In this document: piece by piece, positions 14,057 to 63,808 of the stretch
Position numbering within the stretch: position 1 is the first letter of the stretch
How the letters are laid out: every line of letters begins with the position of its first letter
IMG/VR virus record: IMGVR_UViG_3300002835_000017
Reading direction: 5' to 3' (one strand)
Origin: a virus
DNA length: 64,000 nucleotides
The notes under the pieces: model-generated
The model's database searches: none
The model's input: only the letters and a program-made list of their open reading frames with translations
Told to the model about the DNA's origin: nothing
Position numbers and translations under genes: made by a program

Positions 14057-15496
14057 CTAAATAAGAGTCTTATTAAAATCTAACAAAAAATTTATTACTA
14101 ATTGCATTTCTTTGTTAGATTCTATATTTTTATAAGAGTGTTTCCCATAGTTAAAAAATAGTTTTTGATTATCTATACATATTTCTTTTACATTATTTAA
14201 AAACTCATCCTTTTCCTCTTTTGTTTTGTTTGAAAATTTAGTAATTTCATCTTGAATTAGTCGCAATCTAGCAAAATCATCACATTCCATATCATAACTC
14301 TCATCAATATACGGATGAAATGTTTTAAATCCAAATCTGTTTCTTAAATATTCCAATGATTTAGCAGGTCCTGCTAATATAAATGGTTGGCAATGTCCGA
14401 TTGGTTTCCATATTTTTTCTGAAAGATATCCTGTTGGGAAATTTACAAATACATCATCAGCACCTTTTGATTGAAAAAAAACAGATTCAGTTACAATACT
14501 TACATAAGAATTTAAATAAATATTTTTATCTTCAAATCCAAATCCAGCTATTTTAGTTAAATCATCTATATCTAATACCGAAGATGTTTCTTCAATTAAT
14601 TTACCGAATTCTTCATTTCTATCGTGACGATACATTTCTTCCACTATGTTTTTTGAATAAAATCTTTTATCCCAAGATACTAAATTTTTATCTAAACCTA
14701 ATTTATGCAAATGACTCAATAATAATAATCTATGCAATTTCCAATGCCTGGACAACAATAAAAAATCTTTTTTATCTTTTCCAATACTTTCTTCAAATTC
14801 TGTATGAGTTGCAACGGTGGATACTCCAGATTTAATGGCTCCTACCTGTGGTTCGTTTGAATTCTCACCCCAATAACGAAAATCTGGATTATTTATTATA
14901 TTATTAAATTCTTGAGATTTAGCAACCATATTTAAGGCATAATCGGCTACTTTATATTTTAATCCCAATTTTTTAAGATTCTTTTTTAATTTAAAATCTG
15001 CAAATAAAAAATAAACTTTTTCTTCAGGTATTTCTTTATCACGAATATTTTTAATTAATCTTTCAAAATTTTCTATTTCAATACCTTCACCTCCATCTAT
15101 TGTATAATGTAAAAATAATTTACCATTACCATTTTTTATTTCATCAATTGCTACTTTTGACATGAAATTTAAAGCAAATTCATGTATTGGATGGTTTCCA
15201 AAAAATTGATTTAAATTGCCAAATGGTTCTACAATATAAAACCAATCGTAATTAACACCATTTTTTCTATCTTCTTTTATTTGATAAATTGATTTTTTTA
15301 CAGCATATTTTTCAAAATAATTACTATTATATACCGCCCAATCACAATTCCATCTTTTAGAAAAAAATGCACCTGAATTTGAAAAATCAAAATCAGATGC
15401 ATTATGTATTGTGTTTATGTATTTTGGATTCATACAATTCGGCAATTCACCATTGTATGTTATTATATCATACCCAAAAATTAATTTACTATTCAT
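14057..15496 (-). CDS. Putative glycosyltransferase, GT10-like C-terminal motif family (paralog 1)
   Basis: YVSIVTES..LSEKIWKPI..QPFILAG..GFKTF..IDESYD. Confidence 0.5.
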   Translation of the reverse strand: MNSKLIFGYDIITYNGELPNCMNPKYINTIHNASDFDFSNSGAFFSKRWNCDWAVYNSNYFEKYAVKKSIYQIKEDRKNGVNYDWFYIVEPFGNLNQFFGNHPIHEFALNFMSKVAIDEIKNGNGKLFLHYTIDGGEGIEIENFERLIKNIRDKEIPEEKVYFLFADFKLKKNLKKLGLKYKVADYALNMVAKSQEFNNIINNPDFRYWGENSNEPQVGAIKSGVSTVATHTEFEESIGKDKKDFLLLSRHWKLHRLLLLSHLHKLGLDKNLVSWDKRFYSKNIVEEMYRHDRNEEFGKLIEETSSVLDIDDLTKIAGFGFEDKNIYLNSYVSIVTESVFFQSKGADDVFVNFPTGYLSEKIWKPIGHCQPFILAGPAKSLEYLRNRFGFKTFHPYIDESYDMECDDFARLRLIQDEITKFSNKTKEEKDEFLNNVKEICIDNQKLFFNYGKHSYKNIESNKEMQLVINFLLDFNKTLI

Positions 15497-15519
15497 ATAG
15501 ATGTTTTGTTTTTAATATC

Positions 15520-15645
15520 TTAAAATGATTTGTAAACGAATGGGTCTCTTTTTTTAAGTTCTTCTAATTTTTTTTTAATTTTTTTCTTTGTTTGATATGC
15601 TTGATACCACTTTACAAAGAATGAGATAATAGGTAAATTTTTCAT
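15520..15645 (-). CDS. 41-aa basic peptide (not in ORF track)
   Basis: MKNLPIISFFVKWYQAYQTKKKIKKKLEELKKRDPFVYKSF; fills the gap between neighbouring genes. Confidence 0.7.
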   Translation of the reverse strand: MKNLPIISFFVKWYQAYQTKKKIKKKLEELKKRDPFVYKSF

Positions 15646-15650
15646 ATTAG

Positions 15651-16193
15651 TTAGTTTTCGTAGTATAATGCAGGCCATTCAACAATAATATGAACGCCAC
15701 CTTCATTGTATGCATCTGTATATATCTTATAAATATCATTTGGATTTTTTAATTCCCAAATTTTTGTAAATTGTAATATGGATTTGAATTCTTGTGTATA
15801 ATCGTTTCTATGTTGAATACCTGGGTCTAATGGATTTGTACTACCAACACCAACTCTAATTATGATGTTTGCTTTTTTACCCGTCATATTCTCAAACTTA
15901 TCAGCATGATTTATTAACTGATTTGCAGCCGATACTAAAAAATCCCAACGTGGATAAAATGATATAACGGTTTTTCCTGTGATAGCTAATCCTAAACTCA
16001 TACCCATTTGAGTTTCTTCCATAACAGGTAATTCAATCATTTTTTCTTTTGGAACTTCACCCAGTGTTGTACTCATAGGGTTTCCCGCATAGACAATTTG
16101 TTGCCCAACAAAGATTGTATCTTCTTTTTGAGCAAGAAATGTCATTGCTTTAGTAAGTTCATCTTTATATGGTGATAGTTGTGGTATACTCAT
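15651..16193 (-). CDS. TPP-dependent E1 beta/transketolase pyrimidine-binding subunit (short)
   Basis: ELPVMEETQMGMSLGLAITG, NQLINHADK, IIIRVGVG, PGIQH. Confidence 0.85.
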   Translation of the reverse strand: MSIPQLSPYKDELTKAMTFLAQKEDTIFVGQQIVYAGNPMSTTLGEVPKEKMIELPVMEETQMGMSLGLAITGKTVISFYPRWDFLVSAANQLINHADKFENMTGKKANIIIRVGVGSTNPLDPGIQHRNDYTQEFKSILQFTKIWELKNPNDIYKIYTDAYNEGGVHIIVEWPALYYEN

Positions 16194-16194
16194 A

Positions 16195-17310
16195 TTATAT
16201 GTTTAAATTTAAATGATGAAAATTGTGATTTACAAATTTGTTATTATTTATTTTATTTATTTCTTTTAAAAAATCATCAAACAATTCATGTTCTTCATTA
16301 AATACTTGCAACTCTTTTAAAGTTTCATCTGTATATGTTCCCCAATCTACTATTTGTCTATATTGTATCCATAAATCAAATGTTGAATCTTTAAATATAT
16401 TAGTCATTATCTCATAAAACAAATGCATTTCTTTATAGTTGTGTTTACTAACTACCATAGAGCATATAAATTGGTTTATTGTTTTTTGTTTTGATAAAAA
16501 TTTTAAATTGGTTATTAATCTATCCCAATTACTATTTAATCTAGTCTTATTTTCGTATGTATCTTTTGTTGCAGCGTCAATACTAACTTCTATTGTTTTA
16601 ATGTAAGGACTTGCTTTCATTTGATTCCAAAGCTTTTCATCCAATAAATTACCATTGGTAATTATTTGCAATTGTTCTAACTTTGGATATTTTGTTATAT
16701 CAAAGTTTATCAAATAATCTCTATAAATCTTTGAGTAAAACGGGTCACCACTTCCTGTTACCATTATACATTTTAATCCACTTGCAAAGTTATCTTCAAT
16801 GGATTTTAATAAATGCAACTTTGCTTTATGTTGAGGAGATTGTAAATCATCATTTGGAATTAAATTAACTCTACACGATGGACATTTTAAATTACAACTT
16901 CTATCAAACCCAAATAAAATTTCTTGAGGAGGTAATTTAAAATTAATTACATCTTCTTCGGTATGTATATTATACACTTCTTTAAACTCTTCTATTTCTC
17001 TAAAAAAACAGGGCTTTCTACCTGTATTTATTAACTCATTTAATCTTGGGCATACCGTGTGATTGCAATATGTGTAAGTCCCATCTAAAACTGATTTACG
17101 AATGTTTTTAGCGGGAGTAGATGTCCAATTTCTCATTACATCATCGGTTTCATTTATTGGAAACCAACTTTCATTTCCGTTCTCATCTACTCTGATACTT
17201 TGCGGTGCCCAAGAAGGACAGCATACGAATTGAGATATCGATTGTACATCACTATACATAAACGGCATCTCACAAACGTATTTTTTAAGTATGTCCTCTT
17301 TTTTATCCAT
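16195..17310 (-). CDS. Radical SAM protein with N-terminal Cys-rich (twitch-like) region
   Basis: CNLKCPSC, GSGDPF, ITNG, VSIDA; N-terminal CEMPF..CCP..CNHTVCP. Confidence 0.85.
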   Translation of the reverse strand: MDKKEDILKKYVCEMPFMYSDVQSISQFVCCPSWAPQSIRVDENGNESWFPINETDDVMRNWTSTPAKNIRKSVLDGTYTYCNHTVCPRLNELINTGRKPCFFREIEEFKEVYNIHTEEDVINFKLPPQEILFGFDRSCNLKCPSCRVNLIPNDDLQSPQHKAKLHLLKSIEDNFASGLKCIMVTGSGDPFYSKIYRDYLINFDITKYPKLEQLQIITNGNLLDEKLWNQMKASPYIKTIEVSIDAATKDTYENKTRLNSNWDRLITNLKFLSKQKTINQFICSMVVSKHNYKEMHLFYEIMTNIFKDSTFDLWIQYRQIVDWGTYTDETLKELQVFNEEHELFDDFLKEINKINNNKFVNHNFHHLNLNI

Positions 17311-18302
17311 TAAGGTTTTGAATTTGGGTTATATTGGTGTTTGTTAGCTTTATACCACTCAATAGTTTCTTTAAGAGCTTGTTTCAAATCTCTTTTTGGT
17401 TTCCATCCTAAATCATTAATCTTTTTAGAAGATAGTAATCTAATAGGAATCATTGGTGCTTTGTTATTAACATATTCAATTGGATTAGTGTTGTTATCCA
17501 ATTCTTTAATTGTTGTAAGTGTTTCGTTTACCGTAAATCCTTCACCATAACATACATTAAAGATATCGTATGTATCGTTGTTTTCTGCTACAAAGATAAA
17601 ACCATCTGCCATATCTTCAACGTGTAGTAAATCTCTTACTTCAGTACCATCACCCCAAACTGGGATTGGGTTTAACCCATCTGCAACTTTACGAATGTTT
17701 GCTGGAGTAACGTGACACTTTTCAAAATCAAACTTATCATTAGGTCCAAATGCATTTGAAGGTCTGACAATCAAACACTGCATTGGTTCGTGAATCTGAT
17801 TTGAGAAAAAATCACATAACATTTCACCATATCTCTTCATACCACCAACTGCTTTATAAACAGGCAACATTGGAGTTGCGTGAACATTTATATCTTCAGT
17901 ACAAAATTCAGTACCCATATCTGGATAAGTTGTATTTGATGAAATAAACAAAAACTTACGAACTTTGTTTTTCCAACTCTGTTCCATAAGATTTACATTC
18001 ATCTCCACATTTGGAGTAACGTGTAATAGTGGATTGAATTTAGTATCCAATGCGTTTGATGTGTTCGCTGCACAATGAAAAACTACATCTACATCTTTAC
18101 TGATTAACTCACAAAACTCTGCATTTTGTAAATCTCCTTTGATATGTTCTACTTCGGATGTTCCTTCGAAATCATTTCTCAAATCTCTGCTAAATGATGT
18201 TGACCGAAGGTTTCTGTAACCCTTTTCATGTAATAACCTTAATAAATGTGAACCTATAAATCCACTTGCTCCTGTAACTAAAACTTTGTCTGTTTTTTTC
18301 AT
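17310..18302 (-). CDS. NAD-dependent epimerase/reductase, GDP-L-fucose synthase-like
   Basis: TGASGFIG, VFHCAA, RPSNAFGPND, WGDGTEVRDLLHVED. Confidence 0.85.
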   Translation of the reverse strand: MKKTDKVLVTGASGFIGSHLLRLLHEKGYRNLRSTSFSRDLRNDFEGTSEVEHIKGDLQNAEFCELISKDVDVVFHCAANTSNALDTKFNPLLHVTPNVEMNVNLMEQSWKNKVRKFLFISSNTTYPDMGTEFCTEDINVHATPMLPVYKAVGGMKRYGEMLCDFFSNQIHEPMQCLIVRPSNAFGPNDKFDFEKCHVTPANIRKVADGLNPIPVWGDGTEVRDLLHVEDMADGFIFVAENNDTYDIFNVCYGEGFTVNETLTTIKELDNNTNPIEYVNNKAPMIPIRLLSSKKINDLGWKPKRDLKQALKETIEWYKANKHQYNPNSKP

Positions 18303-18307
18303 TTTGT

Positions 18308-19351
18308 TTAATTAAAAATTTTCCAATTTAATACTACATCGTTTACAAATTTATGAGTTAATATGGATGATGTGTGCCCATACCAACTTTTTTCTAAATA
18401 TTTCTTTTGCTCATCAATACTCATACCGTTCATTTCTCTCCACAAAACTTTTGGTAGATTATCAGTTTCTAATTCTAAATTAAAGTTTCTAATACTCCAT
18501 TCTATTATTCCTCCGTATAAAGATACTAAATTTTCTTCAAAAAACCAAAAATATTTACTAAAATCTATCTTATCTGCATAAGTTTTTACATACGCGTTAT
18601 CAAATTCTAATTCTTTTTGTTCCCAAGTGTTGCAAATATCTCTATTTTGAATTATACATTCATAAACCGACTTATCTGTTGGTGTATGATAATATGGTGG
18701 TGTTCTACCTTCTCTTAAATAATTTTTAGAAAAGTTGTTATTCATATTAAAAAACTTTATTTTTGTAATTCCATTTACTTCTAAAAAGTTAAGCAATAAT
18801 AAAATATATTCAAACCATTCAAAATATCTTTCATCATACGTCATAACTTTATCTAACCATGCAAATGTAACAGGGTCAATATTTATAGGATTATTAGTTG
18901 GATTAAATCCACCAGTTAAATGAAAATATCCATGCTCGTATGGTGTTGTTTTTTCTTTACCATTTATTAGATAATCATTACTATGTACCCAACTGTTGTT
19001 GTGTTTAATATAACTAATTGCAGGGTTTTTATTATTATCATATTTTTCTGGTGAAATAAAAAATGAATTTCTAGTCAAAGTTGTCCATTGTGCAATTACT
19101 GATATATCATTTGGGTCTACCCCTTGTTTTAGTAAATCAGAAACTTTATAAATAATAGAACGAGCAATTGTTTTATTATCATTGGTTATGGTTCCGTAAT
19201 TATGCAATTCATGAGTTTCTTTTAGATTTTCTTGTAACCAATGAGCCCAAGTCCAATTTTCAATTGGGTCTCTTTCCCATCGTTTTTCATCTTCTAAATT
19301 ACATCTATAATTGTTAGTAAAAGAACAGCCAGATACTACTATATGTTTCAT
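18308..19351 (-). CDS. SGNH/GDSL-like protein
   Basis: VSGCSFT block I, QWT, C-terminal His; start moved to MKHIVVSG (ATGA overlap with upstream stop). Confidence 0.55.
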   Translation of the reverse strand: MKHIVVSGCSFTNNYRCNLEDEKRWERDPIENWTWAHWLQENLKETHELHNYGTITNDNKTIARSIIYKVSDLLKQGVDPNDISVIAQWTTLTRNSFFISPEKYDNNKNPAISYIKHNNSWVHSNDYLINGKEKTTPYEHGYFHLTGGFNPTNNPINIDPVTFAWLDKVMTYDERYFEWFEYILLLLNFLEVNGITKIKFFNMNNNFSKNYLREGRTPPYYHTPTDKSVYECIIQNRDICNTWEQKELEFDNAYVKTYADKIDFSKYFWFFEENLVSLYGGIIEWSIRNFNLELETDNLPKVLWREMNGMSIDEQKKYLEKSWYGHTSSILTHKFVNDVVLNWKIFN

Positions 19352-20064
19352 ATATAATTTAATGTTTGTAATTTGTTTGATAAAACATTTGCCCACATTT
19401 CATGTCCTTCTTTATTAGGATGGTCATTTTTAATTGTTTTAGTATACCCGCCAAATGTTTCCTTTAAGAAATTTGGATAATTTAGTATTTCATTATCTGA
19501 AATTATGCAACTATCCCACCCAAAAAAATGCAAATGTTTATAACCATTTAGCTCTAAATACGCATACAATGATTTTATATAATTTTTCGTTTTATTTATT
19601 TGATATTTTGTATTTAAAAAATATCCTATAAATCTCTGCAAATCATTATTGTGTAATTCTAATAATTTTTTTGTGGTTTCATCCGTTTTATTATAATCTG
19701 AATTTTTATTTACTACATGTTTAGAAAATATTCCATAAAAATTTACGTCTTTTAATACTTTATCTGATACTGGAATTAATGCGTTTGGTATTGTAAAATA
19801 CCATTCTCTATTATCGTATGTTGTAGGAAGTTCCATACGGGTATAATGTGTCCATTGAATTATTAATACATCTTCTTTATTAAATCCTTCATTTAAAATA
19901 TAAAAAGCTTTTCTAAAAATATAATCGTTGGATGCCCCACAATTTCCAAAATTATGACAATCTACTTTATGTTTTTCAGAAAGCAATTTTGTATAATTTT
20001 CTATTTGAAAATTTTCTAAACCCTGACCTTCTGTAAAAGAGCATCCAACCGAATATAATTTCAT
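19348..20064 (-). CDS. SGNH/GDSL-like protein
   Basis: GCSFTEG, GASNDYI, IIQWT, DHPNKEGH. Confidence 0.65.
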   Translation of the reverse strand: MKLYSVGCSFTEGQGLENFQIENYTKLLSEKHKVDCHNFGNCGASNDYIFRKAFYILNEGFNKEDVLIIQWTHYTRMELPTTYDNREWYFTIPNALIPVSDKVLKDVNFYGIFSKHVVNKNSDYNKTDETTKKLLELHNNDLQRFIGYFLNTKYQINKTKNYIKSLYAYLELNGYKHLHFFGWDSCIISDNEILNYPNFLKETFGGYTKTIKNDHPNKEGHEMWANVLSNKLQTLNYI

Positions 20065-21062
20065 TACAACCTGCTTTTGTATTCTAAAATTGATTTTGTT
20101 AATCCTTCTTTCAATGTAGTTTGTGGTAGGATTCCGTATTGTTTTTGTTTTTTAGAACCTAAACATCTAATAGGGTCTCCGTTTGTTTTTGTAGAATCCC
20201 ATACTATGTTTTTAGTTTTACCTGTAATTTCGGTATAACATTCAACAATAGTTTCAATTGTATCTTTAATTGATACCGCTTCCGCACATCCAAAGTTAAT
20301 AATATCTCTGACTTCCTTTTTAACTACATCAATCGATGCCTGTGCTACATCATCCCCAAATACAAAATCTCGTTTAGATGAACCATTACCCCAACAAACT
20401 ATATCATCTCCCTCTACATTGAATAGTTTCCAAATGTTAGAAGATATTACAGTTGCATCTTGCGCAAAATTATCGTTTGTTCCATAGATGTTAGAAGGTC
20501 TAATTACAGTCCAATTATCCCAACCATACTGAACTCTTAATGAATCCAATGTAAGTTCTCCCATTCTCTTTGTCCAACCTGGATGCCAATCTAAACGAGA
20601 TGGGGTTGATGCCCAAGTTTCTTCTTGATTCCAAGTATCTTCTTCATTCATTACATCTGCTGGCTTATAAACTCCAACCGATGAAAGATAAACGAACCAA
20701 TCAACCTTTGCATCAAACGATGCTTTAATCATATTGGTATTAAACATCAACATTGGGAATAGATAATCAGCAGGACAAGTTGATGACCTTGCTGGTGAGC
20801 CTTTTACTCCTGCTATATGTAATACAATATTAATATCATCTAACTTAAACAAATCCTCACAATGTGAAAGATATGTTAAATCGGTTTTTACCAATTCCAA
20901 TCTATCTTGATATTGTCCCTTTAAGAAATTTAAATTTTCACTAAATCTTAAATCTACTGCATATACTTTTGCAGCATCTTCTTCTAAACATTTTTTAACT
21001 GCTGGTAATCCTACCAATCCATTTGCTCCCGTAACCAGAACGGTTTTTCCTTTTAATTCCAT
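20064..21062 (-). CDS. NAD-dependent epimerase/reductase, GDP-L-fucose synthase-like
   Basis: TGANGLVG, LSSVGVY, RPSNIYG, WGNGSSKRDFVF. Confidence 0.85.
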   Translation of the reverse strand: MELKGKTVLVTGANGLVGLPAVKKCLEEDAAKVYAVDLRFSENLNFLKGQYQDRLELVKTDLTYLSHCEDLFKLDDINIVLHIAGVKGSPARSSTCPADYLFPMLMFNTNMIKASFDAKVDWFVYLSSVGVYKPADVMNEEDTWNQEETWASTPSRLDWHPGWTKRMGELTLDSLRVQYGWDNWTVIRPSNIYGTNDNFAQDATVISSNIWKLFNVEGDDIVCWGNGSSKRDFVFGDDVAQASIDVVKKEVRDIINFGCAEAVSIKDTIETIVECYTEITGKTKNIVWDSTKTNGDPIRCLGSKKQKQYGILPQTTLKEGLTKSILEYKSRL

Positions 21063-21069
21063 TTTATTT

Positions 21070-22473: not shown

Positions 22474-22474
22474 A

Positions 22475-55264: not shown

Positions 55265-58200
55265 TTATTCTACTTCCAAAATAGGTTCGGAAGAATCTCT
55301 ACCAGTTTTATTTACTTTTAATGTATTCGGATTAGATATAAATGTTTCAATCGGAGAACTACCATCTAGTGTAGTTGCCGCAGTATTTTTAGAACCCTTA
55401 AAGAAACTATTTTGTAATCCCCTAGTTAAATCGGAAGTAAATTTATTATGCGTTGGTAAATATCCATTTACATTTGTTACTTCTATTACATTGCCCCCAA
55501 CTGTTGGACTATTTGGTGCACCGAATGGTTGAATATTTAATCGTGTTTCAGTATAAGTTTGAATATCCGAAACATATCCACCACGTGGGTCTCCCAATCC
55601 GTTTGCAGATGCGGTAATTGCAAATTTTTGTATAATTCTTTCTTTTTCTTCCGTAACTAATTGTACTTTAATTCGTTCTTTAACAACTCTATTATCTTTA
55701 TTAAAATAAGTTCTAATCGCGGAACCGTTTTGTGCGTATATACCAAACCCAATTGTTTCAAATTCAGTTTGTCCTATAACTTGATTGGAATTTATAATAT
55801 CAATTTCAGTTACAATTGTAGGGGTTCCTAAATCTGCATCTATAGTTATTTCTTTTTGATAATAATCCGAATTAAAAACAAAATTAGAATTCATATCAAT
55901 AGTAGAATCCTGTTGATAATTTTCAGCCAATAAATTATTTACCGATGCAGTTGAAATCAATGCTTCATACTGATTGTTTTCTACCGTTAAATTTTCTGAT
56001 AAATTGGCATCTATTAATGTTTCTTTTTGAATATTTTCAAATGAAATAACACTAGTATCAGATAATTTTATTTCAGTTTCTTTCTGATAATCATCTGCAG
56101 TAGGTTTTTTGTGAACAACTTTACTTCTTTCTAAAAAGTGTGGTTCTATTAATAAACCAGTAGTTGCTTTAACCCTCGCAGGCAACATCTTTTTTAAATC
56201 TTCAAACATAGATTTCTCATATAGTTTGATTAGATTTATGTAAGCATATATATCTCTATTATCAAATCTTTGGAAATAATAATTTCTTAAATTATCCAAT
56301 GATTTATAATTTGGTTTATAATCATCCGATGGGTCACCAATGTAGTTATCAATATTTAACCCACCAAAAGTTTTAGCAATATCCATATTCAACTCTTTTG
56401 TAGGAGAGAAGAATAAACCAACTCTGTTAGAATCAGTTGGAGATTGGTCAAATGCTTTTTTAGTTGCTCTACTTTTTGAAGATAAATCTACACCAACACT
56501 TCCAGATATTTTTTGATTAGTTAAAGTATATTGGTCTTCGAATCTAACTTTATTAGTTGAAAATCTACTCGCTCCACCATCTGGATAATCCATTACAATT
56601 GTTCTATCGATTACTTCAAATTGAAATGGATATTCACTTATAGATGGGAAATTAAATGCCGATGCTGATAATAATGGTGTAGTGTTTACCGAATACAATG
56701 AAGCAGTAGTTCCATTTTCATAATCATTTCTAGTCAATCCATTTTCAAAATAAATGTTAGTATCAACATTTATTAACGAAGATGTTTGTGCTAAATTTTT
56801 AGGATATTCAAAATCTAAACGGAAATATAAATCATCGGTTGAAGATGAAACACTATTTCCATTAATCATTTCAGGAAATGAAACGTGTTCATAAAATCTT
56901 TCAGTATCCAATACTTCAGACCATAAACGGAATTCATCCACACTACCAATATAGTTTCCACCCAATCTAATTGTAGAACCATTATTCCAATTTGTATAAT
57001 TAGAAGATGATATTGATTCTTGGAATATAGTTCTTTCTTTATCGGCTTGTCTTACATCCAATTTTAATCCAGCAGAACCACTACTTACAGATATACCAAA
57101 AAATTTACCATTAAATATTGGTAATGTTGAGGTTTCTATTGATAGTGACCCACTATAATTAAATTTAACTTTACCATAATCACTATTTGTAGAACCACTT
57201 AAATTTACATTCCAGCCACTACCACTTATTAAAGTATATTGGGATGATTCTAATGGTTTTACAAATAATTCAATCGTATTTGGTTTAAGACTAGAAGTAT
57301 TATTTGTTTGTTTCCACTCCATCTGTATTGATGAAGTTAATGCCATGTTAAGACCCGTAGTAATATTATCTATTACCAACTTACTTTTAGATGTATCGTT
57401 TATTTCAGGACCTCCAAATTCTAAAATTGAAAGATTAGATGATGGAATACCATAACATGCCATCAATGCGTGAATACCTCTCCTAGTACCTTTATGTTTT
57501 AGTAGATATGGTAAGTTATTTACAATTCTTCTCCAAACTTCGTTAGTTCTTTGTTTGGCCGGATTTGATTCTTTATCATTACCTTCTTTATCCTTGCCAA
57601 ATACATAACTCCACAAATCGGCATCAGCTGCTAAATTTTTAGCATCCCAACTAAATGATTTTAATGTATCAAAAAGTAATTTGTCAGAAATGCCATCTTT
57701 TGCTTTATATCCTAAACCTCTACTTTTTTCAATTGATTTTGTATGGAAATAGATATTATCAAAATGATGTCCAATCATTGAGAAGAATAATAATAAACTT
57801 TCGTTTTCATCATTATTAACAATGAATTGAGGTATATTGTTTAATACATAATTTGAATTATTGGCATCATATATATTTGCAAGTTCTTCTATATTATTGT
57901 ACCAATTTTTAACTTCGTTAGATGTACTCAATCTTCGATTAGCACCATTGTAGGGCCAACTTAAAGAAGATGATGTGTATAAGAATTTTTCAAATCCATC
58001 AAATCCGTTTATTAATTGATTTTTCTTTAATTGTTGTCTTTCTGCTTCTTGTATAGATGGTAACGAACCACTATGTGCCTGTGATGCGTTAGCTGCTGAT
58101 AGAGCAGTTTCATATAATTCAATTAGTTGTATTTTATATACAAAGTTATCAATACGTTCATTTGCAGAACTGAAATGAACAAAATTCTCCCATAAATAAG

Positions 58201-60241
58201 TAGAACCAGACGAGTATTCGATATTTAATTCATCCGTAGTTATTAACGATGAACTTAAATATAGTGATACTAACTCATTAGAAGATGTGGAACCACTTAA
58301 TATTATATTATCTAATGATTCGTAATTAGTAGATTGTCCTTTTACAAAGTCTACATCAATTGTAAAATTTGGTCCTTTTATTGGTGGACAACTTACATCA
58401 TTATTTTCTGTTAATACAACCGTTTCAATTAAAGGATTACTCATTAATTTTGTAATCCAGAATGTTGAATTATTCTGTATATTAGCAGGTAATGGTGAAT
58501 ATAGTTTTAATATAATTGAATTAACAACATCATTTGGAGCAACAAATGTATTACCTAAATTATCTGTAGACTTTTTAGATAATGTAAAATCATCAGTTTC
58601 CCAAGATGAAATTATAATTTGCTCATCGTTTCCAAAATTAGCAAGGTGTGTTAGATACTTACTTTCTTTTGAAGGTTCATCGATTTTTAATTTTTCAGAA
58701 AAAGCATTAAATAAAGCGTTAGTAATTATATCTTCATTTAATGAAAGTGTTGGTAGTGTTAATTTTGTCAACACTTCGTATTCATTACCAATTAACTCCT
58801 CTGCTCCACTTCGATTATATGGTTTTAGTATTAATGTTATATTAGTACTACCAACCCAGTTAGGATAATTTTCTCTTAATTTTTTAAGATTAATTTTTAT
58901 AGAACCGTTTGGTGGTTGATTACTTAATAATCCAATTTTACTACCATCTTTTTGTTTTAACCAAACATCAACTGATGAAACTGCAAAAGAGGAATATGAA
59001 ACTTCATAATCAATATTATAATCAGAAAACGATGGTACATCGATTGATTCTGCATATATGACTTCCGTAATAGCAGGGAAATCATTTATAGCAGTAAATG
59101 TTAAAATCACCTCAACTCTAGTTCCTGTTCCAAATTTTTTACTGGTTGGAACAAAAAATATTTTTTTAGAACCGTAAACCTCATTAAAATCTTTTTGAAA
59201 GAATATAGTTACTTCTTTGTCACTAGCTGGAATTTCTAAAACTTTATCAGCCGAAAGATATACTAAAACGGAATCTGCGAATTCAGTATTAAATGGAATT
59301 ACTATACTTTTTTCTGTATCCGAATCTTTTACATTAACATTATATTGTATTTGATTTAATACTACTGTAGGTGATTCGGATTTAATTTCTCTTTCAGCTT
59401 CAATTACAACACCTAAACCTGAATTTAATAATGATGCTGGTACTCTAAATGCATAATTTTGTTTTGTTAACCTATCGTAGTTAACAGAATCTGAACCAAA
59501 TTGTTGAGCAATTCCAGAATATATGTTTTTGATAAAAATACCATCTGGTACATTACCTTTAATTTCAAAGTTAACAAACCCCCCATCTAAAATATTTTTG
59601 GGTATTGTAGAAATTCTGTTATCATATAATTGCAATTCTCCATCTACAACTATATTATCTTCAAATACAATTTGATATTTTAAACTTAAAGTAGTTAATT
59701 CCTTTATATTAGAATTAAACAAAACTTCATAACCAACCATTGGATTATCAACGGTTACCACGTCTGCAGGTGGTGTTGGAAGTGTTTGAGTTCGTTGTAA
59801 TACCTCTGTTTTAAATCTTAAAGTTATTGTTCCGAAATTGAAGTTTTGGGTTTGTTGTTCTTCCCATACATCATCTATTAATGAATATTCTGTAACACCG
59901 ATTCCCTCAACTATTTCATTCGCAAATTGTAGTTGTTTAGTATTAATTATAAATTTTGATAATACTTTTCCATTATCTAAATTTGCAGTATAAGTTTTAG
60001 GACCATTAAATTGTAAAGATGAATTATATACAATATCAACGGATTTACCATATCCAGCAGATACACCTTCTTCAAAAAATTCTAAATCATTAGTTTCACT
60101 TACTAAATAAATTTTTAACGAAGATGGTGGGTTAGTTGGTCTATACGTGGGGGCATTGTAAGGACCAGTTTGACCTGTATTCCTAGTACTTCCGTTATTA
60201 TTAAAATCCGGATAAGCGTAAAGGCTTTCTTGTTCTGCCAT
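55265..60241 (-). CDS. Large baseplate protein with LamG-like domain
   Basis: 1658 aa; NLPYLLKHKGTRRGI wedge-like motif; GSVDEFRLW LamG motif; TATTTATA at 60259-60266. Confidence 0.65.
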   Translation of the reverse strand: MAEQESLYAYPDFNNNGSTRNTGQTGPYNAPTYRPTNPPSSLKIYLVSETNDLEFFEEGVSAGYGKSVDIVYNSSLQFNGPKTYTANLDNGKVLSKFIINTKQLQFANEIVEGIGVTEYSLIDDVWEEQQTQNFNFGTITLRFKTEVLQRTQTLPTPPADVVTVDNPMVGYEVLFNSNIKELTTLSLKYQIVFEDNIVVDGELQLYDNRISTIPKNILDGGFVNFEIKGNVPDGIFIKNIYSGIAQQFGSDSVNYDRLTKQNYAFRVPASLLNSGLGVVIEAEREIKSESPTVVLNQIQYNVNVKDSDTEKSIVIPFNTEFADSVLVYLSADKVLEIPASDKEVTIFFQKDFNEVYGSKKIFFVPTSKKFGTGTRVEVILTFTAINDFPAITEVIYAESIDVPSFSDYNIDYEVSYSSFAVSSVDVWLKQKDGSKIGLLSNQPPNGSIKINLKKLRENYPNWVGSTNITLILKPYNRSGAEELIGNEYEVLTKLTLPTLSLNEDIITNALFNAFSEKLKIDEPSKESKYLTHLANFGNDEQIIISSWETDDFTLSKKSTDNLGNTFVAPNDVVNSIILKLYSPLPANIQNNSTFWITKLMSNPLIETVVLTENNDVSCPPIKGPNFTIDVDFVKGQSTNYESLDNIILSGSTSSNELVSLYLSSSLITTDELNIEYSSGSTYLWENFVHFSSANERIDNFVYKIQLIELYETALSAANASQAHSGSLPSIQEAERQQLKKNQLINGFDGFEKFLYTSSSLSWPYNGANRRLSTSNEVKNWYNNIEELANIYDANNSNYVLNNIPQFIVNNDENESLLLFFSMIGHHFDNIYFHTKSIEKSRGLGYKAKDGISDKLLFDTLKSFSWDAKNLAADADLWSYVFGKDKEGNDKESNPAKQRTNEVWRRIVNNLPYLLKHKGTRRGIHALMACYGIPSSNLSILEFGGPEINDTSKSKLVIDNITTGLNMALTSSIQMEWKQTNNTSSLKPNTIELFVKPLESSQYTLISGSGWNVNLSGSTNSDYGKVKFNYSGSLSIETSTLPIFNGKFFGISVSSGSAGLKLDVRQADKERTIFQESISSSNYTNWNNGSTIRLGGNYIGSVDEFRLWSEVLDTERFYEHVSFPEMINGNSVSSSTDDLYFRLDFEYPKNLAQTSSLINVDTNIYFENGLTRNDYENGTTASLYSVNTTPLLSASAFNFPSISEYPFQFEVIDRTIVMDYPDGGASRFSTNKVRFEDQYTLTNQKISGSVGVDLSSKSRATKKAFDQSPTDSNRVGLFFSPTKELNMDIAKTFGGLNIDNYIGDPSDDYKPNYKSLDNLRNYYFQRFDNRDIYAYINLIKLYEKSMFEDLKKMLPARVKATTGLLIEPHFLERSKVVHKKPTADDYQKETEIKLSDTSVISFENIQKETLIDANLSENLTVENNQYEALISTASVNNLLAENYQQDSTIDMNSNFVFNSDYYQKEITIDADLGTPTIVTEIDIINSNQVIGQTEFETIGFGIYAQNGSAIRTYFNKDNRVVKERIKVQLVTEEKERIIQKFAITASANGLGDPRGGYVSDIQTYTETRLNIQPFGAPNSPTVGGNVIEVTNVNGYLPTHNKFTSDLTRGLQNSFFKGSKNTAATTLDGSSPIETFISNPNTLKVNKTGRDSSEPILEVE

Positions 60242-60279: not shown

Positions 60280-61581
60280 TTATTTGATTGCACCTCTTGG
60301 TCTCGGTGTAGGAGAAATTCCAGGATTAAATTGTCCAGTTTGTCCTCTAGTATCTTCAACTAAACCTGTTTCAGATGGTATAGTTTGTTCACCAGTTCCT
60401 CCTCCTGTTGAAGTTGGAGTAGTATCCGTTGGTGGATTATATTCTGGTACTGTTACAGGAGCCTTCTCTTCTACTACAGGTATTTTTGGAGGAGGTTGTA
60501 ATGCAGGTGGTTGTGGTGGTATAACTTCAACTGGAGTAGGTGGAGTTACATTTGGAATACCTTCAAATGATACTGCCACTAATTCTGGAGAATACACATT
60601 TCTTACAATTTCTACTTTAGTATCGTACGCTTGAACTAAATTTTCAATCTGTTTTTTAACTTCCTCTACCCCAAATTCAACAGGTAACTTTTCATATTTT
60701 ACAACTCTTCTATTTAATGTTTTTATATTAAATGTTATAGAATTATTTAAAATGTTTTTTATTTCATTTAATAAATAATTAAAATCATATTGGTCACAAT
60801 CATCAAATCTTTTTTCAGATGGAGACCCGAATGTGGATTGAGCAATATCATAGTTTTTATTGTTTAACCAATATACAACACTATCTCTAAAATCTGTAAA
60901 TATTTTAGTCTTAAATGCATTAAAATTACTTAATCCAAAATCTTTTTTAAGAACTGATTGAAAATCATTTCCAAATTTTGCTACCAATGCATCATCTATA
61001 GATTGTAAAGATGTTCTTTCAAACGCATCCAACCCATCTAATATATTTTTTTTATAATATTTAAAATCTCTATTTAGATTGTTTAAGTTTAAAAATTGTT
61101 TAGTATTAGTTGCGTTTATTTCAGAACTATTGGTTTTTAATGGTATAATACGAACCTCTTCTCTTGATGGAGATATTTCATGTATCCAAACTCTTTCTAA
61201 TTCATTTTCACTACCAACTCTACTACGAACGAAATTAATATTAACTTTAAGAATACCGTTTGTAAACCCTAAATCATTTAATAATTTTTCAATATTAATA
61301 GCAAGTTCTTTTTTCCCCAATGTATTAGTAAGTGAATACATATATGAACCTATGCTATTTTTTTTTATGTATGCAACATTTTTTCCTGATTTTTGGGGTA
61401 AAAGTATATTATTAATATCGTATACAGATACTTCCATCACATCATACTTACACTCACCAAATTCGGTTTCTTGTTTTTCGTTTTTTGTAACAATAAACAA
61501 ATCTTCTGCAAGGAGAAACTGCCCTTCATTGGTTGAATTTGAATTTATGCTATCAAAATTTGTATATTTTCTAATACTCAT
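60280..61581 (-). CDS. Hypothetical structural protein with Pro-rich tail
   Basis: 433 aa; EISPSREEVRI; P/T-rich C-terminus. Confidence 0.55.
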   Translation of the reverse strand: MSIRKYTNFDSINSNSTNEGQFLLAEDLFIVTKNEKQETEFGECKYDVMEVSVYDINNILLPQKSGKNVAYIKKNSIGSYMYSLTNTLGKKELAINIEKLLNDLGFTNGILKVNINFVRSRVGSENELERVWIHEISPSREEVRIIPLKTNSSEINATNTKQFLNLNNLNRDFKYYKKNILDGLDAFERTSLQSIDDALVAKFGNDFQSVLKKDFGLSNFNAFKTKIFTDFRDSVVYWLNNKNYDIAQSTFGSPSEKRFDDCDQYDFNYLLNEIKNILNNSITFNIKTLNRRVVKYEKLPVEFGVEEVKKQIENLVQAYDTKVEIVRNVYSPELVAVSFEGIPNVTPPTPVEVIPPQPPALQPPPKIPVVEEKAPVTVPEYNPPTDTTPTSTGGGTGEQTIPSETGLVEDTRGQTGQFNPGISPTPRPRGAIK

Positions 61582-61592
61582 AGTTTAATATA

Positions 61593-62744
61593 TTAATATG
61601 AACCTGGATTTGCTTTTACAATATTACATGGATATTCTTTAAATTCAGTTGTACCATCTTTTTTAGTTGCAATAACTTTTATAGTTCCTTTATATTCCGT
61701 TGTATTACCCCATCCCCATGGCCATTTTTCTTCTGATTCAGCCCTTTTTGGTACTGCGTTTGCATTTATTTTAAAGTCAATAGTTTCATTTCCACCACCA
61801 GCTAAATCAAAATTATTCTTCGGCACGGTTACCCAATTCCAATTATTGGCTAATTTAAGTTGAAATGTTATATTTACAGGTTGAGTATCGTTGTTTGTTA
61901 TAGCCAACTGACCACCTGCCTCCCATTTGGTTGAGTTATAATCCTTCGCATTAATTTTACCAGCCAATCCTTTTGTTATATCGGTTCTAGTTGTTGCACC
62001 TGACCACTTAATGATTGTGGTTTTAACTAAAATATCACCACCACTTGCTAACGCAGTATTAGATGCCGATTGTTGAATAGCCTGTTGTTGTTGAACTGCG
62101 CCTAATTGAGATTGTAAACCTTCTATAATTGAATTTAATGAATCAATCTGTTTAATCAATGCTTCAATTTGTGCTTTAAATCCTGCGTTTTGAGATTGTA
62201 AAGATGCTCTTAAAATAGATTCATCTACTGATTTTTGCACTGCAGATTGTATCTGTGTTGCAAATTGCTCAATCACTTTTGATAACGCATCCAGTTGATT
62301 AGCCAATACATCATTGGTTTGCTCTATTGATAATCGTTTATTAGTTTCAGATAGTACTTTAGATGTTAACGTATTGATTTCAGAATTTAAAACTTCAATA
62401 TCTGTTGTTAATTTTTCGACTTGTTTTCTTAAATCTCTATTAGCAACAACCTCATCATCATATAGTGGTTTAGGTACTAAATTAAGGTTTACTTCAGGAA
62501 TATTTGGCTTTAATTCCTTAACTTCAGTATCAATTGCTTTTAAAAGTTCAACATTATCTAGTTTGGATATAACTAAAGGTTTAAACACTAAAGATGATGC
62601 TACATTATCTTCATTAACTACGGTTACACCATATTCATTTTTAGAAACTGCGGCAGAACCTGATACTTTTAGAATATTTTCTAAATCAGTATTTCTTTTT
62701 TCTTCCAATTTTAATGCAATTGCTTCTAATGATGTTAATGCCAT
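61593..62744 (-). CDS. Coiled-coil protein with C-terminal Ig-like domain
   Basis: Heptad-rich central region followed by beta-rich C-terminus. Confidence 0.55.
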   Translation of the reverse strand: MALTSLEAIALKLEEKRNTDLENILKVSGSAAVSKNEYGVTVVNEDNVASSLVFKPLVISKLDNVELLKAIDTEVKELKPNIPEVNLNLVPKPLYDDEVVANRDLRKQVEKLTTDIEVLNSEINTLTSKVLSETNKRLSIEQTNDVLANQLDALSKVIEQFATQIQSAVQKSVDESILRASLQSQNAGFKAQIEALIKQIDSLNSIIEGLQSQLGAVQQQQAIQQSASNTALASGGDILVKTTIIKWSGATTRTDITKGLAGKINAKDYNSTKWEAGGQLAITNNDTQPVNITFQLKLANNWNWVTVPKNNFDLAGGGNETIDFKINANAVPKRAESEEKWPWGWGNTTEYKGTIKVIATKKDGTTEFKEYPCNIVKANPGSY

Positions 62745-62746
62745 TA

Positions 62747-63808
62747 TTATACTATTTGAAATGTTAATTTATCATCAATTATAGTAGATATTTCACCATC
62801 AATTATTTTTAATTTTAATCTATATGTTCTATACAATGGTAGTGTATTTAAATCTAAAATAAAATAATTGGATGTATTATCACATGAAATTTTAGTATAT
62901 TCTCCAAATGGATATATAACATCATCTGTTACATAATCTTCCAATTGATAATATGATGTTGTAGGTAAATATTTTGATTGGTCATATTCAAATGTTGTTG
63001 AAAATGACTTTAAAGGAAACATATCTCTACCTTTAATTCTAATTTTTATCTTACTATCTTTACTATATTCCGTTTTTAAATTGGTAATAATTACTTTATA
63101 ATCATCTTGAGCAGAACCAGTAACTGGTAATAAACTGCCTGTTACAAATGATACATCATTCCAAACTACTTCTAATTTTGGCTCATATATAGTAGTAGTT
63201 TCTTTAGAAAAGAATTTCAATACACCATAATCTAATGCATTTTCTTCGTTTTCTAATCCATGATGTACAATAAATCCATTATTTGGTATAGAACCACTTA
63301 ACCAGCTATTAACTATACCTGTCACATTAATTCTGATATCAGCATCTTCATAGTTATAAGATTGAGATGCTTGAGATGCAGTATACCACGTTCCCCCTTC
63401 CGCGTTTGCAGAACCAGTTGTTCCTGGCGTAAATACCGCAGTTCCTGCAGTAACATTATCTTGCCAAGTATCAACACCATTTCGGTATTTCCAACTTACA
63501 CCATCCGATGTAATATTATCAAATTTAGTACCCGTTCCCATTGTCCAACTTTGCGAAACTGCGTTCGCGTGTATTGTATATTCTAAAGGAATTTCTTCTG
63601 CTTGAGAAGATTTTAGATTTAAATAAACAATAGAACCACTTGGGATTCCCATATTAGCTACATCAAATTTTATTAAGGTTCTAGCTATATCTTTAGCGGA
63701 ACCATAATATAATTTACCAACCTCTAATATCTCATCTCTACCTGCATTTTGGTCTGGTTGTTGTAAGTAGATACTGGCATCGAACGATGATGTGAATAAT
63801 TTATGCAT
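62747..63808 (-). CDS. Structural protein with DNRLRE/CBM96-like domain
   Basis: DASIY, RTLIKFD, VSQSW..G, NNGFIV, FFSKE..PKLEV. Confidence 0.6.
   Translation of the reverse strand: MHKLFTSSFDASIYLQQPDQNAGRDEILEVGKLYYGSAKDIARTLIKFDVANMGIPSGSIVYLNLKSSQAEEIPLEYTIHANAVSQSWTMGTGTKFDNITSDGVSWKYRNGVDTWQDNVTAGTAVFTPGTTGSANAEGGTWYTASQASQSYNYEDADIRINVTGIVNSWLSGSIPNNGFIVHHGLENEENALDYGVLKFFSKETTTIYEPKLEVVWNDVSFVTGSLLPVTGSAQDDYKVIITNLKTEYSKDSKIKIRIKGRDMFPLKSFSTTFEYDQSKYLPTTSYYQLEDYVTDDVIYPFGEYTKISCDNTSNYFILDLNTLPLYRTYRLKLKIIDGEISTIIDDKLTFQIV

What the first reader, a model, noticed from the sequence alone, without database searches (positions are those of the whole stretch)
14057..63808. Candidate phage-encoded virion O-glycosylation system with a [S/T]-G-S acceptor motif
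Seen: the tripeptide [S/T]GS recurs in structural proteins. By-eye counts are about 13 in the first ~770 aa of the tail fibre, 8 in the 1658-aa baseplate protein, 5 in the 411-aa, 5 in the 353-aa, 3 in the 52097 protein and 1 in the 74-aa protein, plus many TAS/SAS/SSS. I saw none in terminase, portal, primase or the 1052-aa Mre11-Rad50. A ~26 kb glycosylation island is co-oriented directly downstream of the tail fibre gene. Known: Ser-Gly is the proteoglycan attachment motif in animals, and GT7 includes the linker enzyme beta4GalT7. Inference: the phage builds its own glycan on a defined sequon on virion surface proteins, for shielding, stability or adhesion.
Basis: partly seen in the sequence, partly recalled or inferred. 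Interest (0 to 1): 0.85.

Follow-up and report, generated by a model that had tools for sequence, protein, structure and literature searches.

The report
Ser-Gly-Ser motif on phage virion surface
A water phage's exposed tail and capsid proteins are packed with the tripeptide Ser/Thr-Gly/Ala-Ser far beyond chance. The same excess occurs in cultured relatives that lack every gene of this phage's sugar-building island, so the motif is real but has not been shown to be that island's attachment site.

Summary
SGS is the most over-represented recurring tripeptide. Genome-wide, exposed virion proteins carry 148 [ST]GS against 32 expected; interior virion proteins, island enzymes and all other proteins sit at about 1x.

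The motif is [ST]-[G>A>S]-S with a strict Ser in third place. SGT, TGT, NGS and AGS are flat. Selection acts on the protein, not the DNA.

The link to the 27-kb island is not supported. Flavobacterium phage immuto and Microcystis phage Mel-JY01 show the same excess (4-7x), yet neither has a homologue of any island enzyme, even by profile search. T4 and P-SSM2 show no excess.

The island is real. Its conserved core (methyltransferase, GT2/92-like enzyme, three GT7-LamG enzymes, twitch radical-SAM enzyme) follows a fibre gene in about 80 viral contigs. GT7 enzymes are known only to extend sugars, and I found no protein-initiating transferase.

My best reading (0.45) is a lineage-wide structural punctuation motif of exposed virion modules, with an independent glycan module. 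A modification sequon remains open (about 0.3) and is testable on the cultured relatives.

The scan noted the same motif before, in this genome and in other genomes.

The parts
62747..63808 (-). 353-aa baseplate-periphery protein with a CBM96-like N-terminal domain and a C-terminal beta domain; 5 [ST]GS
   Evidence: 5 against 0.42 expected. It follows the gp6-like wedge gene and has orthologues in immuto and Mel-JY01. AlphaFold2 pLDDT 93.2. Foldseek best matches are chondroitin-sulfate- and alginate-binding CBMs, 8WAB and 7VBO. Motifs lie at a loop-to-strand edge, in a short edge strand, at a helix C-cap and in the interdomain linker.
61593..62744 (-). 383-aa coiled-coil-like protein; 1 motif
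60280..61581 (-). 433-aa conserved protein of the baseplate module that almost never carries the motif
   Evidence: 0 in the window copy. Only 2 alignment columns carry the motif across 21 orthologues.
55265..60241 (-). 1658-aa large baseplate protein (in the VrlC position); 8 motifs
   Evidence: 8 against 1.64 expected. 41 alignment columns carry the motif in 30 orthologues. Orthologues exist in immuto and Mel-JY01.
54592..55215 (-). 207-aa conserved structural-module protein with no motif in any orthologue
   Evidence: 0 columns in 42 orthologues, although it has S 8%, T 12% and G 9%.
53348..54583 (-). 411-aa virion protein of a very abundant family; 5 motifs
   Evidence: 5 against 0.72 expected. 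At least 7828 clusters of homologues. 16 alignment columns carry the motif; counts per orthologue range 3-8.
52097..53302 (-). 401-aa paralogue of the 411-aa protein; 3 motifs
46596..47309 (-). 2OG-Fe(II) oxygenase (prolyl-hydroxylase-type Pfam family) directly upstream of the tail fibre gene
   Evidence: PF13640, E 8e-11. The fibre carries an 11-triplet collagen-like stretch at residues 1016-1048.
41061..46322 (-). 1753-aa tail fibre; 13 motifs, all in residues 187-765; collagen-like GXY run; C-terminal S74 intramolecular chaperone
   Evidence: 13 against 5.09 expected. Peptidase_S74, E 2e-16. PDB 6F45 matches the C-terminus.
37959..38942 (-). 327-aa protein with a weak GT4-like (GT-B) signal; semi-conserved island member
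   Evidence: PF13439, E 0.0037, below the cut-off. Homologue present in 49 of 80 GT7-LamG loci.
34963..35721 (-). SAM methyltransferase; first gene of the conserved core module, preceded by a -35/-10-like promoter
   Evidence: Methyltransf_24, E 8e-12. Present in 75 of 80 loci. Upstream sequence shown.
34115..34966 (-). 283-aa GT2/GT92-like glycosyltransferase (core)
   Evidence: Present in 78 of 80 loci. Atlas neighbours are named GT2-like, and 56% of one neighbouring cluster carries Glyco_transf_92. This is a lead, not a test.
29390..34100 (-). Three GT7 (beta-1,4-galactosyltransferase-type) paralogues, each with a LamG/ConA-like domain, plus a 113-aa ORF (32294-32635)
   Evidence: Glyco_transf_7N/7C and Laminin_G_3 score above cut-offs. 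Beta4GalT1 E 5.6e-32 and beta4GalT7 E 8e-31. Present in 76-80 of 80 loci and in 11 of 11 long relatives.
27970..29385 (-). Twitch-domain radical SAM enzyme (core)
   Evidence: NF033640, 348.6 bits against a cut-off of 170. Present in 75 of 80 loci.
14057..27991 (-). Variable sugar-tailoring cassette: RmlC-like epimerase, three SDR NDP-sugar epimerase/dehydratase/reductases, split PDH-E1-like TPP enzyme, two more radical SAM enzymes, a HAD phosphatase and unknowns
   Evidence: These genes are present in only 1-40 of 80 loci. No multi-TM protein is present.

Best explanation
Two separate things are present.

(1) The motif. [ST]-[G>A>S]-S is a protein-level motif under selection in the outward-facing virion proteins: fibres, baseplate periphery, sheath and capsid surface. 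It is a trait of a whole lineage of aquatic T4-like phages (this clade, Microcystis phage Mel-JY01, Flavobacterium immuto phages; weaker in RM378 and HTVC008M). It sits where regular structure ends: strand-to-loop edges, a helix C-cap, domain linkers, and every 14 or 21 residues between fibre-shaft repeats. I read it as a structural 'punctuation' element: two hydroxyl side chains flanking a tiny residue, which caps or hinges the segments of extracellular fibrous and beta-sandwich modules. I do not read it as the acceptor site of this island. This step is inferred.

(2) The island. It is an independent glycan-building module. Its conserved seven-gene core is a methyltransferase, a GT2/92-like enzyme, three GT7-LamG enzymes, a 113-aa protein and a twitch radical-SAM enzyme. 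A swappable deoxy- or branched-sugar cassette accompanies it. The conserved core and its fixed place after a fibre gene point to a phage-made acceptor, probably a fibre, rather than variable host O-antigen. The attachment site and the initiating enzyme are unknown. This step is also inferred.
For: Motif independent of the island:
- Immuto structural proteins: SGS 50 against 11.4 and TGS 40 against 11.1.
- Mel-JY01: 45 against 6.5.
- Neither has GT7 or any island homologue by profile HMM at E<=0.01.
- P-SSM2, which has GT2- and GT1-family genes, shows no excess: 16 against 12.8 in its fibre region and 115 against 87.8 overall.

Structural placement:
- Hydrophobic residues are enriched at -1, -2 and +1 relative to the motif.
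- In the pLDDT-93 model the five sites are a loop-to-strand edge, an edge strand, a helix C-cap and a domain linker.
- The two most conserved sites across 81 diverged homologues are the linker (67 of 81) and the helix cap (40 of 81).
- In fibres the motif recurs at fixed places in tandem repeats.

Island:
- GT7 homology to beta4GalT1 and T7 is about 1e-31; all characterised GT7 enzymes extend glycans (established knowledge).
- The core is conserved in 75-80 of 80 loci, with a large motif-rich fibre ORF upstream in most.
- No multi-TM (Wzx/Wzy/Gtr-like) protein is present.
Against: A purely structural role explains the following poorly:
- The strict Ser in third place (S:T about 8:1, although T is as common), in both coil and strand contexts.
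- Fold independence.
- Absence from the homologous T4 baseplate, sheath and capsid proteins: 4 against 9.7.
- Absence from this phage's own cytoplasmic proteins, about 1.0x.
- Rapid site turnover with maintained density: 64 alignment columns in 81 sequences, and only 1-2 of 3-8 sites shared between the window phage and immuto.
- At conserved columns the hydroxyls are kept rather than the Gly (SQS, TSS, TAS), and a genuine Gly turn (xGN) does not favour the motif.

These are the features expected of a site read by a trans-acting enzyme.
Confidence: 0.45

Rival explanations
1. [ST]-[GA]-S is the acceptor sequon of a lineage-wide covalent modification of exposed virion proteins, most plausibly O-glycosylation of the third-position Ser. 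An unidentified initiating enzyme adds the first sugar. Lineage-specific glycosyltransferase islands (here the GT7-LamG core) extend it into different glycans.
For: - Sequence specificity typical of an enzyme: [ST]-x-S is enriched only for x = G, A or S, and [ST]-x-T is flat.
- Restriction to exterior virion proteins.
- Fold and context independence.
- Site turnover with conserved density, and whole proteins that never carry the motif.
- Hydroxyls conserved more than the Gly.
- Every motif-rich lineage carries a multi-GT cluster.
- Fibre-to-GT7-LamG synteny in most of 80 loci.
- GT7 enzymes as extenders fit a 'conserved primer, variable glycan' model.
Against: - No enzyme is shared by the motif-rich lineages: BLAST and profile searches of all island proteins against immuto and Mel-JY01 are negative.
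- The lineage-specific conserved genes are structural or regulatory, with no enzyme domain.
- No known polypeptide O-glycosyltransferase family was detected in the island.
- Hydrophobic flanks are unlike most O-glycosylation regions.
- P-SSM2 has glycosyltransferase genes but no motif excess.
- There is no biochemical evidence.
Confidence: 0.3
2. The narrow version proposed by the first reader: this island's own enzymes attach and build a proteoglycan-like glycan directly on [ST]GS.
For: The island adjoins the fibre gene. GT7 homology includes beta4GalT7. A Ser-Gly pair is present.
Against: - The motif is equally strong where no island gene exists.
- No GT14 xylosyltransferase is present.
- There are no acidic flanks, and the Ser lies after the Gly rather than before it.
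- GT7 enzymes need a sugar acceptor.
Confidence: 0.1
3. The island remodels the host envelope (O-chain or capsule) during infection to block superinfection, which is the published reading for similar islands in pelagimyophages. On this view the motif is unrelated.
For: PMC7029224 describes fibre, glycosyltransferase and radical-SAM 'host recognition clusters' in T4-like pelagimyophages and favours host O-chain modification. The core module has its own -35/-10-like promoter.
Against: - No flippase, polymerase, ligase, Gtr-type or polyprenyl-phosphate transferase is present, and the island has no multi-TM protein.
- The four-GT core is conserved across phages only 42-93% identical. That fits a conserved phage-made acceptor better than hypervariable host glycans.
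Confidence: 0.2

Closest known systems
Mycobacteriophage virion O-glycosylation (Freeman et al. 2023, Cell Host Microbe; recalled from my own knowledge, and alluded to in PMC11256854, listed)
   Same: Phage-encoded glycosyltransferases sit beside structural genes, and the proposed targets are virion surface proteins modified in the cytoplasm.
   Different: There, glycosylation was shown biochemically on Ser/Thr-rich C-terminal extensions of capsid and tail-tube proteins, in actinophages. Here nothing has been measured, the candidate site is a dispersed tripeptide, and the enzymes (GT7-LamG) are unrelated.
Host recognition cluster of pelagimyophages and cyanomyophages (Zaragoza-Solas et al. 2020, PMC7029224)
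   Same: A large variable island inside the structural region of aquatic T4-like phages mixes tail fibres, glycosyltransferases and radical-SAM cassettes.
   Different: The published reading is host O-chain modification, with GT8 as the dominant family. Neither the GT7-LamG core nor any peptide motif is described there.
Animal GT7 beta-1,4-galactosyltransferases 1 and 7 and the proteoglycan Ser-Gly linker
   Same: The catalytic domain is clearly homologous (E about 1e-31), with DxD and WGxEDDD-type motifs aligned. A Ser next to Gly is involved.
   Different: A LamG domain is fused into the phage enzymes. No xylosyltransferase is present. The linker sequon is acidic-x-Ser-Gly, whereas here it is [ST]-[GA]-Ser with hydrophobic flanks. 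GT7 enzymes never act on the peptide itself.
Bacterial autotransporter heptosyltransferases (AAH/TibC on AIDA-I/TibA; own knowledge)
   Same: Cytoplasmic O-glycosylation of many Ser residues in a repetitive beta-rich adhesin, with a strand-short loop-strand structural motif as the recognition site. This is the best mechanistic analogue if the motif is modified.
   Different: The enzyme family is different and has no homologue here. The repeat consensus is different. Membership was not tested beyond the Pfam and NCBIfam scans.
Punctuation motifs of T-even fibre adhesins (His boxes of gp37, glycine-rich motifs of gp38; own knowledge)
   Same: Short conserved motifs delimit variable segments of phage fibres and have a structural role.
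   Different: Those motifs are limited to one adhesin family and are thought to aid recombination. Here the motif is fold-independent, and its codon usage is explained by genome-wide codon-pair bias, so no DNA-level signal is present.

Membership tests
CAZy GT7 / Pfam Glyco_transf_7N+7C | Sequence membership above curated thresholds, with aligned DxD and C-terminal acidic motifs | tested here: met
   All three paralogues score above the Pfam cut-offs: 51-68 bits against 27 for 7N, and 23.3-65.8 bits against 23 for 7C (the third paralogue is marginal at 23.3). Beta4GalT1 E 5.6e-32, with HDIDMVP and WGMEDDD aligned.
CAZy GT7 / Pfam Glyco_transf_7N+7C | Transfer to a sugar acceptor (GlcNAc, Xyl) from a UDP-sugar | not testable with these tools
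   This needs an enzyme assay. The LamG fusion is a departure from all solved GT7 structures.
Phage-encoded virion protein O-glycosylation system | A polypeptide-initiating glycosyltransferase | tested here: not met
   Pfam, NCBIfam, PHROGs and Atlas scans of the island proteins found only sugar-extending-type GT-A enzymes and one weak GT4-like hit. Unknown proteins remain, so absence is not proven.
Phage-encoded virion protein O-glycosylation system | Co-occurrence of the acceptor motif with the enzymes across relatives | tested here: not met
   The motif excess is equal or greater in immuto and Mel-JY01, which lack all island genes. Within the near clade the test is uninformative, because 11 of 11 relatives have GT7-LamG.
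Phage-encoded virion protein O-glycosylation system | Glycan detected on virion proteins | not testable with these tools
   This requires virion glycoproteomics or staining.
Proteoglycan-type Xyl-Ser linkage | GT14 xylosyltransferase and an acidic Ser-Gly sequon | tested here: not met
   No GT14 or Branch domain is found in any window protein. Flanks are enriched in V, I, L and F, not D or E.
Host O-antigen/LPS modification island | Membrane components (Wzx, Wzy, WaaL, GtrABC or a polyprenyl-phosphate transferase) | tested here: not met
   A hydropathy scan finds no multi-TM protein between window 14057 and 41059, and there are no such Pfam hits. Soluble glycosyltransferases could still use host carriers.
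NF033640 twitch-domain radical SAM | Score above the NCBIfam cut-off | tested here: met
   348.6 bits against 170 for window 27970-29385.
CBM96-like / DNRLRE-type carbohydrate-binding module (353-aa protein, N-terminal domain) | Fold match to solved CBMs | tested here: inconclusive
   Foldseek E 2.7e-07, TM (target) 0.71 to 8WAB and 0.63 to 7VBO, at 13-16% identity. There is no sequence-family hit, and binding was not tested.

The most novel reading that the evidence does not exclude
[ST]-[GA]-S is the sequon of an undescribed virion-surface O-modification shared by a very abundant lineage of aquatic T4-like phages. A still-unrecognised initiating enzyme acts first, and lineage-specific glycosyltransferase islands (GT7-LamG core here) build diverse glycans on it. 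This would be a phage 'glycan coat' analogous to those of giant viruses and enveloped viruses.
Probability: 0.25. Interest if true: 0.85.

Novelty: new variant of a known kind. Interest (0 to 1): 0.6.

Why it matters
The motif signal is unusually clean. It shows 5-7x excess and strict third-position Ser. It is seen only on outward-facing virion proteins and across at least 150 diverged family representatives. Two full-text searches found no description of it.

If it marks a modification, this very abundant group of freshwater and marine phages would carry a defined virion-surface sequon. The 411-aa protein family alone has at least 7828 sequence clusters. That would bear on host recognition, stability and particle behaviour in water.

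If it is structural, it is a compact design rule for segmenting phage fibres and receptor-binding modules.

Either way, the result separates the motif from the GT7-LamG island. It also shows that the question can be settled on phages already in culture (Flavobacterium phage immuto, Microcystis phage Mel-JY01).

Tried and rejected
- **DNA-level motif** (recombination or methylation site). The AGT-GGT-TCN bias at motif sites equals the genome-wide codon-pair bias: GGT before Ser 81-82% everywhere, and AGT before Gly 48-57%. Rejected.
- **'The Gly is the conserved part, so it is just a Gly turn.'** This looked true in the 411-aa family but failed on more data. All three positions are retained about equally, and conserved columns keep the hydroxyls instead. 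Withdrawn.
- **Local S/T/G richness as an artefact of whole-protein shuffling.** Rejected, because SGT, TGT, SSG, SGG and GGS are flat or depleted.
- **AlphaFold2 of the 411-aa protein** with a shallow alignment failed (pLDDT 37) and was not used.
- **PHROGs** gave nothing for the window's structural proteins.
- **PDB sequence searches** of fibres matched only the S74 chaperone, plus a weak reovirus sigma-1 coiled-coil hit.
- **Promoter timing.** A TATTTATA-type upstream motif precedes both structural and replication genes, so expression timing of the island could not be inferred.
- **Search for a lineage-conserved modifying enzyme.** Genes shared with immuto and Mel-JY01 but absent from T4 and P-SSM2 are structural, or a sigma-like factor; none has an enzyme domain.
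- **LamG domain of the glycosyltransferases related to a virion LamG protein.** The profile hits immuto structural proteins (E 7e-07), but pairwise BLAST to this phage's 228-aa homologue is not significant. Left as a lead.
- **Literature searches** for an SGS motif in phage fibres or glycan staining of such virions found nothing relevant.
- **Mis-specified calls.** Searches were mis-specified and returned errors.

Full report
**What the window is.** The window is the minus strand of bases 27418-91417 of a 145-kb IMG/VR virus record, estimated 77% complete. All major genes lie on the window's minus strand. The portal (T4 gp20 family) and large terminase identify a T4-like myovirus. Its nearest cultured relatives are Microcystis phage Mel-JY01 (portal 50% identical) and the Flavobacterium 'immuto' phages (47%). 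The clade is extremely abundant: the 411-aa structural protein has at least 7828 homologous clusters and at least 586 loci in IMG/VR.

**Checking the observation.**
- The by-eye counts are exact.
- Per-protein shuffles give 13 against 5.1 (tail fibre), 8 against 1.6, 5 against 0.7, 5 against 0.4 and 3 against 0.6.
- Pooled, the nine window structural proteins carry 35 against 10.1 expected; the largest of 300 shuffles was 20.
- Ranking all tripeptides shows SGS as the most over-represented recurring tripeptide, 24 against 5.1, so the result does not depend on the motif having been chosen after the fact.
- The zeros in terminase, portal, primase and Mre11-Rad50 are simply the expectation (0.13-0.37 each).

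**The signal beyond the window.** A fibre block at genome 101853-116227 carries 103 motifs against 20 expected. They sit at fixed places in tandem shaft repeats, for example '...TEIGVV-SGS-LIASAS...', '...NGVI-SGS-SQ...' and a 21-residue unit '...LIETS-TGS-LNTF...'. By class:

| Class | Observed | Expected |
|---|---|---|
| Exterior virion proteins | 148 | 32.3 |
| Interior virion proteins (portal, cargo polyprotein, scaffold, tube, tape measure, hub) | 8 | 5.9 |
| Island enzymes | 4 | 2.6 |
| All other proteins | 11 | 10.2 |

**What the motif is.**
- In this phage's structural proteins SGS is 87 against 16 and TGS 51 against 14. SGT (13 against 14), TGT, NGS, AGS, SGA and SGN are at expectation, and SGG is depleted. 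SAS and TAS are about 2.3x.
- A full matrix was computed on 150 representatives (no two above 50% identical) of the 353-aa protein family. [ST]-x-S is enriched only for x = G (6.6x), A (4.0x) and S (2.1x), plus Q from one conserved column. [ST]-x-T is flat. The phage's non-virion proteins are flat throughout.
- Flanks are hydrophobic at -1, -2 and +1.
- The codon bias at the motif (AGT-GGT-TCN) equals a genome-wide codon-pair bias, so selection acts on the protein.

**Where the motif sits.** AlphaFold2 with an 81-sequence alignment folds the 353-aa protein at pLDDT 93. Its N-terminal domain resembles chondroitin-sulfate- and alginate-binding modules, which fits a receptor-binding baseplate protein. 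Its five motifs lie:
- at a loop-to-strand edge;
- in a short edge strand;
- at a helix C-cap;
- twice in the interdomain linker.

Across the family 64 alignment columns carry the motif in at least one of 81 sequences. The linker site (67 of 81) and the helix cap (40 of 81) are conserved; most others are rare. At conserved columns the alternatives are SQS, SES, TSS and TAS, so the hydroxyls are kept rather than the Gly. A classical Gly turn (xGN) does not favour the motif.

Sites turn over. The window phage and immuto share only 1-2 of 3-8 sites per orthologue. Close orthologues differ in number, 3-8 in the 411-aa family. The 207-aa and 433-aa neighbours almost never carry the motif.

**The island.** Window 14057-41059 encodes:
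- three GT7 plus LamG paralogues, homologous to beta4GalT1 and T7 at about 1e-31;
- a GT2/92-like protein;
- a methyltransferase and a twitch radical-SAM enzyme;
- a weak GT4-like protein;
- a sugar-tailoring set: an RmlC-like epimerase, three SDR enzymes, a split PDH-E1-like TPP enzyme, two more radical SAM enzymes and a phosphatase.

No island protein has multiple membrane helices. In 80 IMG/VR loci found with one GT7-LamG paralogue, the order methyltransferase, GT2/92-like, GT7-LamG, 113-aa, GT7-LamG, GT7-LamG, radical SAM is present in 67-80 loci. The sugar cassette is present in 1-40 loci. A large motif-rich fibre ORF lies upstream in most loci. All 11 long relatives carrying the 411-aa orthologue have GT7-LamG. 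The core is therefore a lineage trait and not a stray cassette.

**Testing the link between motif and island.**
- GT7-LamG has no match in 50,697 deposited phage genomes. PF13733 is absent from Mel-JY01, immuto, RM378, HTVC008M and P-SSM2.
- Immuto nevertheless shows the same excess: tail spike 26 against 5.9, a 373-aa protein 12 against 1.3, sheath 7 against 1.3; SGS 50 against 11.4 overall.
- Mel-JY01 is stronger still, 45 against 6.5, with SGT and TGT again flat.
- RM378 is intermediate (53 against 19.9 proteome-wide) and HTVC008M is weak (37 against 18.7).
- P-SSM2 shows no excess (16 against 12.8 in the fibre region; 115 against 87.8 overall). T4 shows none (fibres 6 against 3.5; late region 4 against 9.7; whole proteome 20 against 29).
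- Profile HMMs built for every island protein find no homologue in immuto or Mel-JY01. The two exceptions are a HAD phosphatase hit in Mel-JY01 and a LamG-domain match to immuto structural proteins.
- Both relatives carry unrelated glycosyltransferase clusters, and so does motif-poor P-SSM2.

The motif follows phage lineage, not this island or GT7.

**Interpretation.** The evidence separates the finding into two features.

The motif is real, selected and lineage-wide. Two mechanisms remain for it.

*Structural 'punctuation' reading.* This is supported by the hydrophobic flanks, the placement at the ends of secondary-structure elements and in linkers, the periodic position in fibre repeats, and the lack of any shared enzyme.

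*Modification-sequon reading.* This is supported by the strict Ser in third place, context independence, restriction to exposed virion proteins, absence from T4 homologues of the same folds, and site turnover with conserved density.

I could not find a lineage-conserved enzyme. Genes shared with immuto and Mel-JY01 but absent from T4 and P-SSM2 are structural, or a sigma-like factor. I therefore place the structural reading first (0.45) and a sequon of some modification second (about 0.3).

For the island, the conserved four-GT core beside a fibre gene and the lack of envelope-pathway components favour a phage-made acceptor over host O-antigen. The published reading for similar islands is host modification (PMC7029224), and nothing here measures either.

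**Comparison with known systems.** Phage virion glycosylation is established for mycobacteriophages (own knowledge). Fibre-plus-glycosyltransferase islands are described for pelagimyophages. GT7 membership of the catalytic domains is met. Membership in a protein O-glycosylation system is not, because there is no initiator and the co-occurrence test fails. The proteoglycan analogy is also not met. Two full-text searches found no description of an SGS-type motif in phage fibres.

**Earlier notes of this scan.** The same motif was noted in this genome and in other genomes, and the GT7-LamG design in another phage. I treated those as leads only.

**Verdict.** The open question can be answered by proteomics on phages that are already in culture.

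Noticed in passing
outside the window: G000:C1:101853-116227 (locus L005): Block of nine fibre-like genes with 103 [ST]GS against 20 expected. The motif recurs every 14 or 21 residues in tandem shaft repeats. Residues 491-568 of the 1003-aa protein weakly match the reovirus sigma-1 coiled coil (E 0.027).
   Followed up: partly
window 46596-47309 and 41061-46322: A prolyl-hydroxylase-type 2OG-Fe(II) oxygenase lies directly upstream of a tail fibre that carries an 11-triplet collagen-like run (residues 1016-1048). This is a possible hydroxylation target, as in giant-virus collagens.
   Followed up: no
intergenic regions across the genome, e.g. window 60259-60266, 55238-55245, 46339-46346, 39204-39211, 5540-5547, 2759-2766: A TATTTATA-type motif (coding strand) lies about 20-35 nt upstream of many structural and some replication genes. 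A lineage-specific 229-aa protein (G000:C1:19498-20187) resembles phage sigma factors. The conserved glycosyltransferase core instead has a TTTGTAAA-N17-TATATTGTAAT promoter-like site before window 35721.
   Followed up: partly
outside the window: G000:C1:20192-21892: A 566-aa NodU/CmcH-type O-carbamoyltransferase (both Pfam domains, E about 1e-60) lies inside the baseplate gene module. It is not shared with immuto or Mel-JY01. It could carbamoylate a sugar hydroxyl.
   Followed up: no
window 29390-34100 versus immuto gp050/gp051 and G000:C1:103653-104339: A profile of the GT7-LamG paralogues matches two immuto 'structural proteins' (E 7e-07), whose homologue in this phage sits in the fibre block. 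Pairwise BLAST is not significant. This may hint that the LamG insert derives from, or docks like, a virion LamG protein.
   Followed up: partly
whole genome: Strong codon-pair bias: Gly before Ser is GGT in 81-82% of cases (against 46% otherwise), and Ser before Gly is AGT in about 50-57% (against 20% otherwise).
   Followed up: yes
L204 (P-SSM2 18953-20746): One 597-aa protein of Prochlorococcus phage P-SSM2 has 15 [ST]GS against 3.8 expected, although the rest of that phage shows no excess.
   Followed up: no
window 40331-41059: A 242-aa Gly/Ser-rich protein (13.6% G) directly after the tail fibre gene has no [ST]GS at all and ends in GGGGGI. Its function is unknown.
   Followed up: no
outside the window: G000:C1:17148-18047: A UvdE-type UV damage endonuclease (Pfam E 2e-64) is encoded upstream of the baseplate module.
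   Followed up: no
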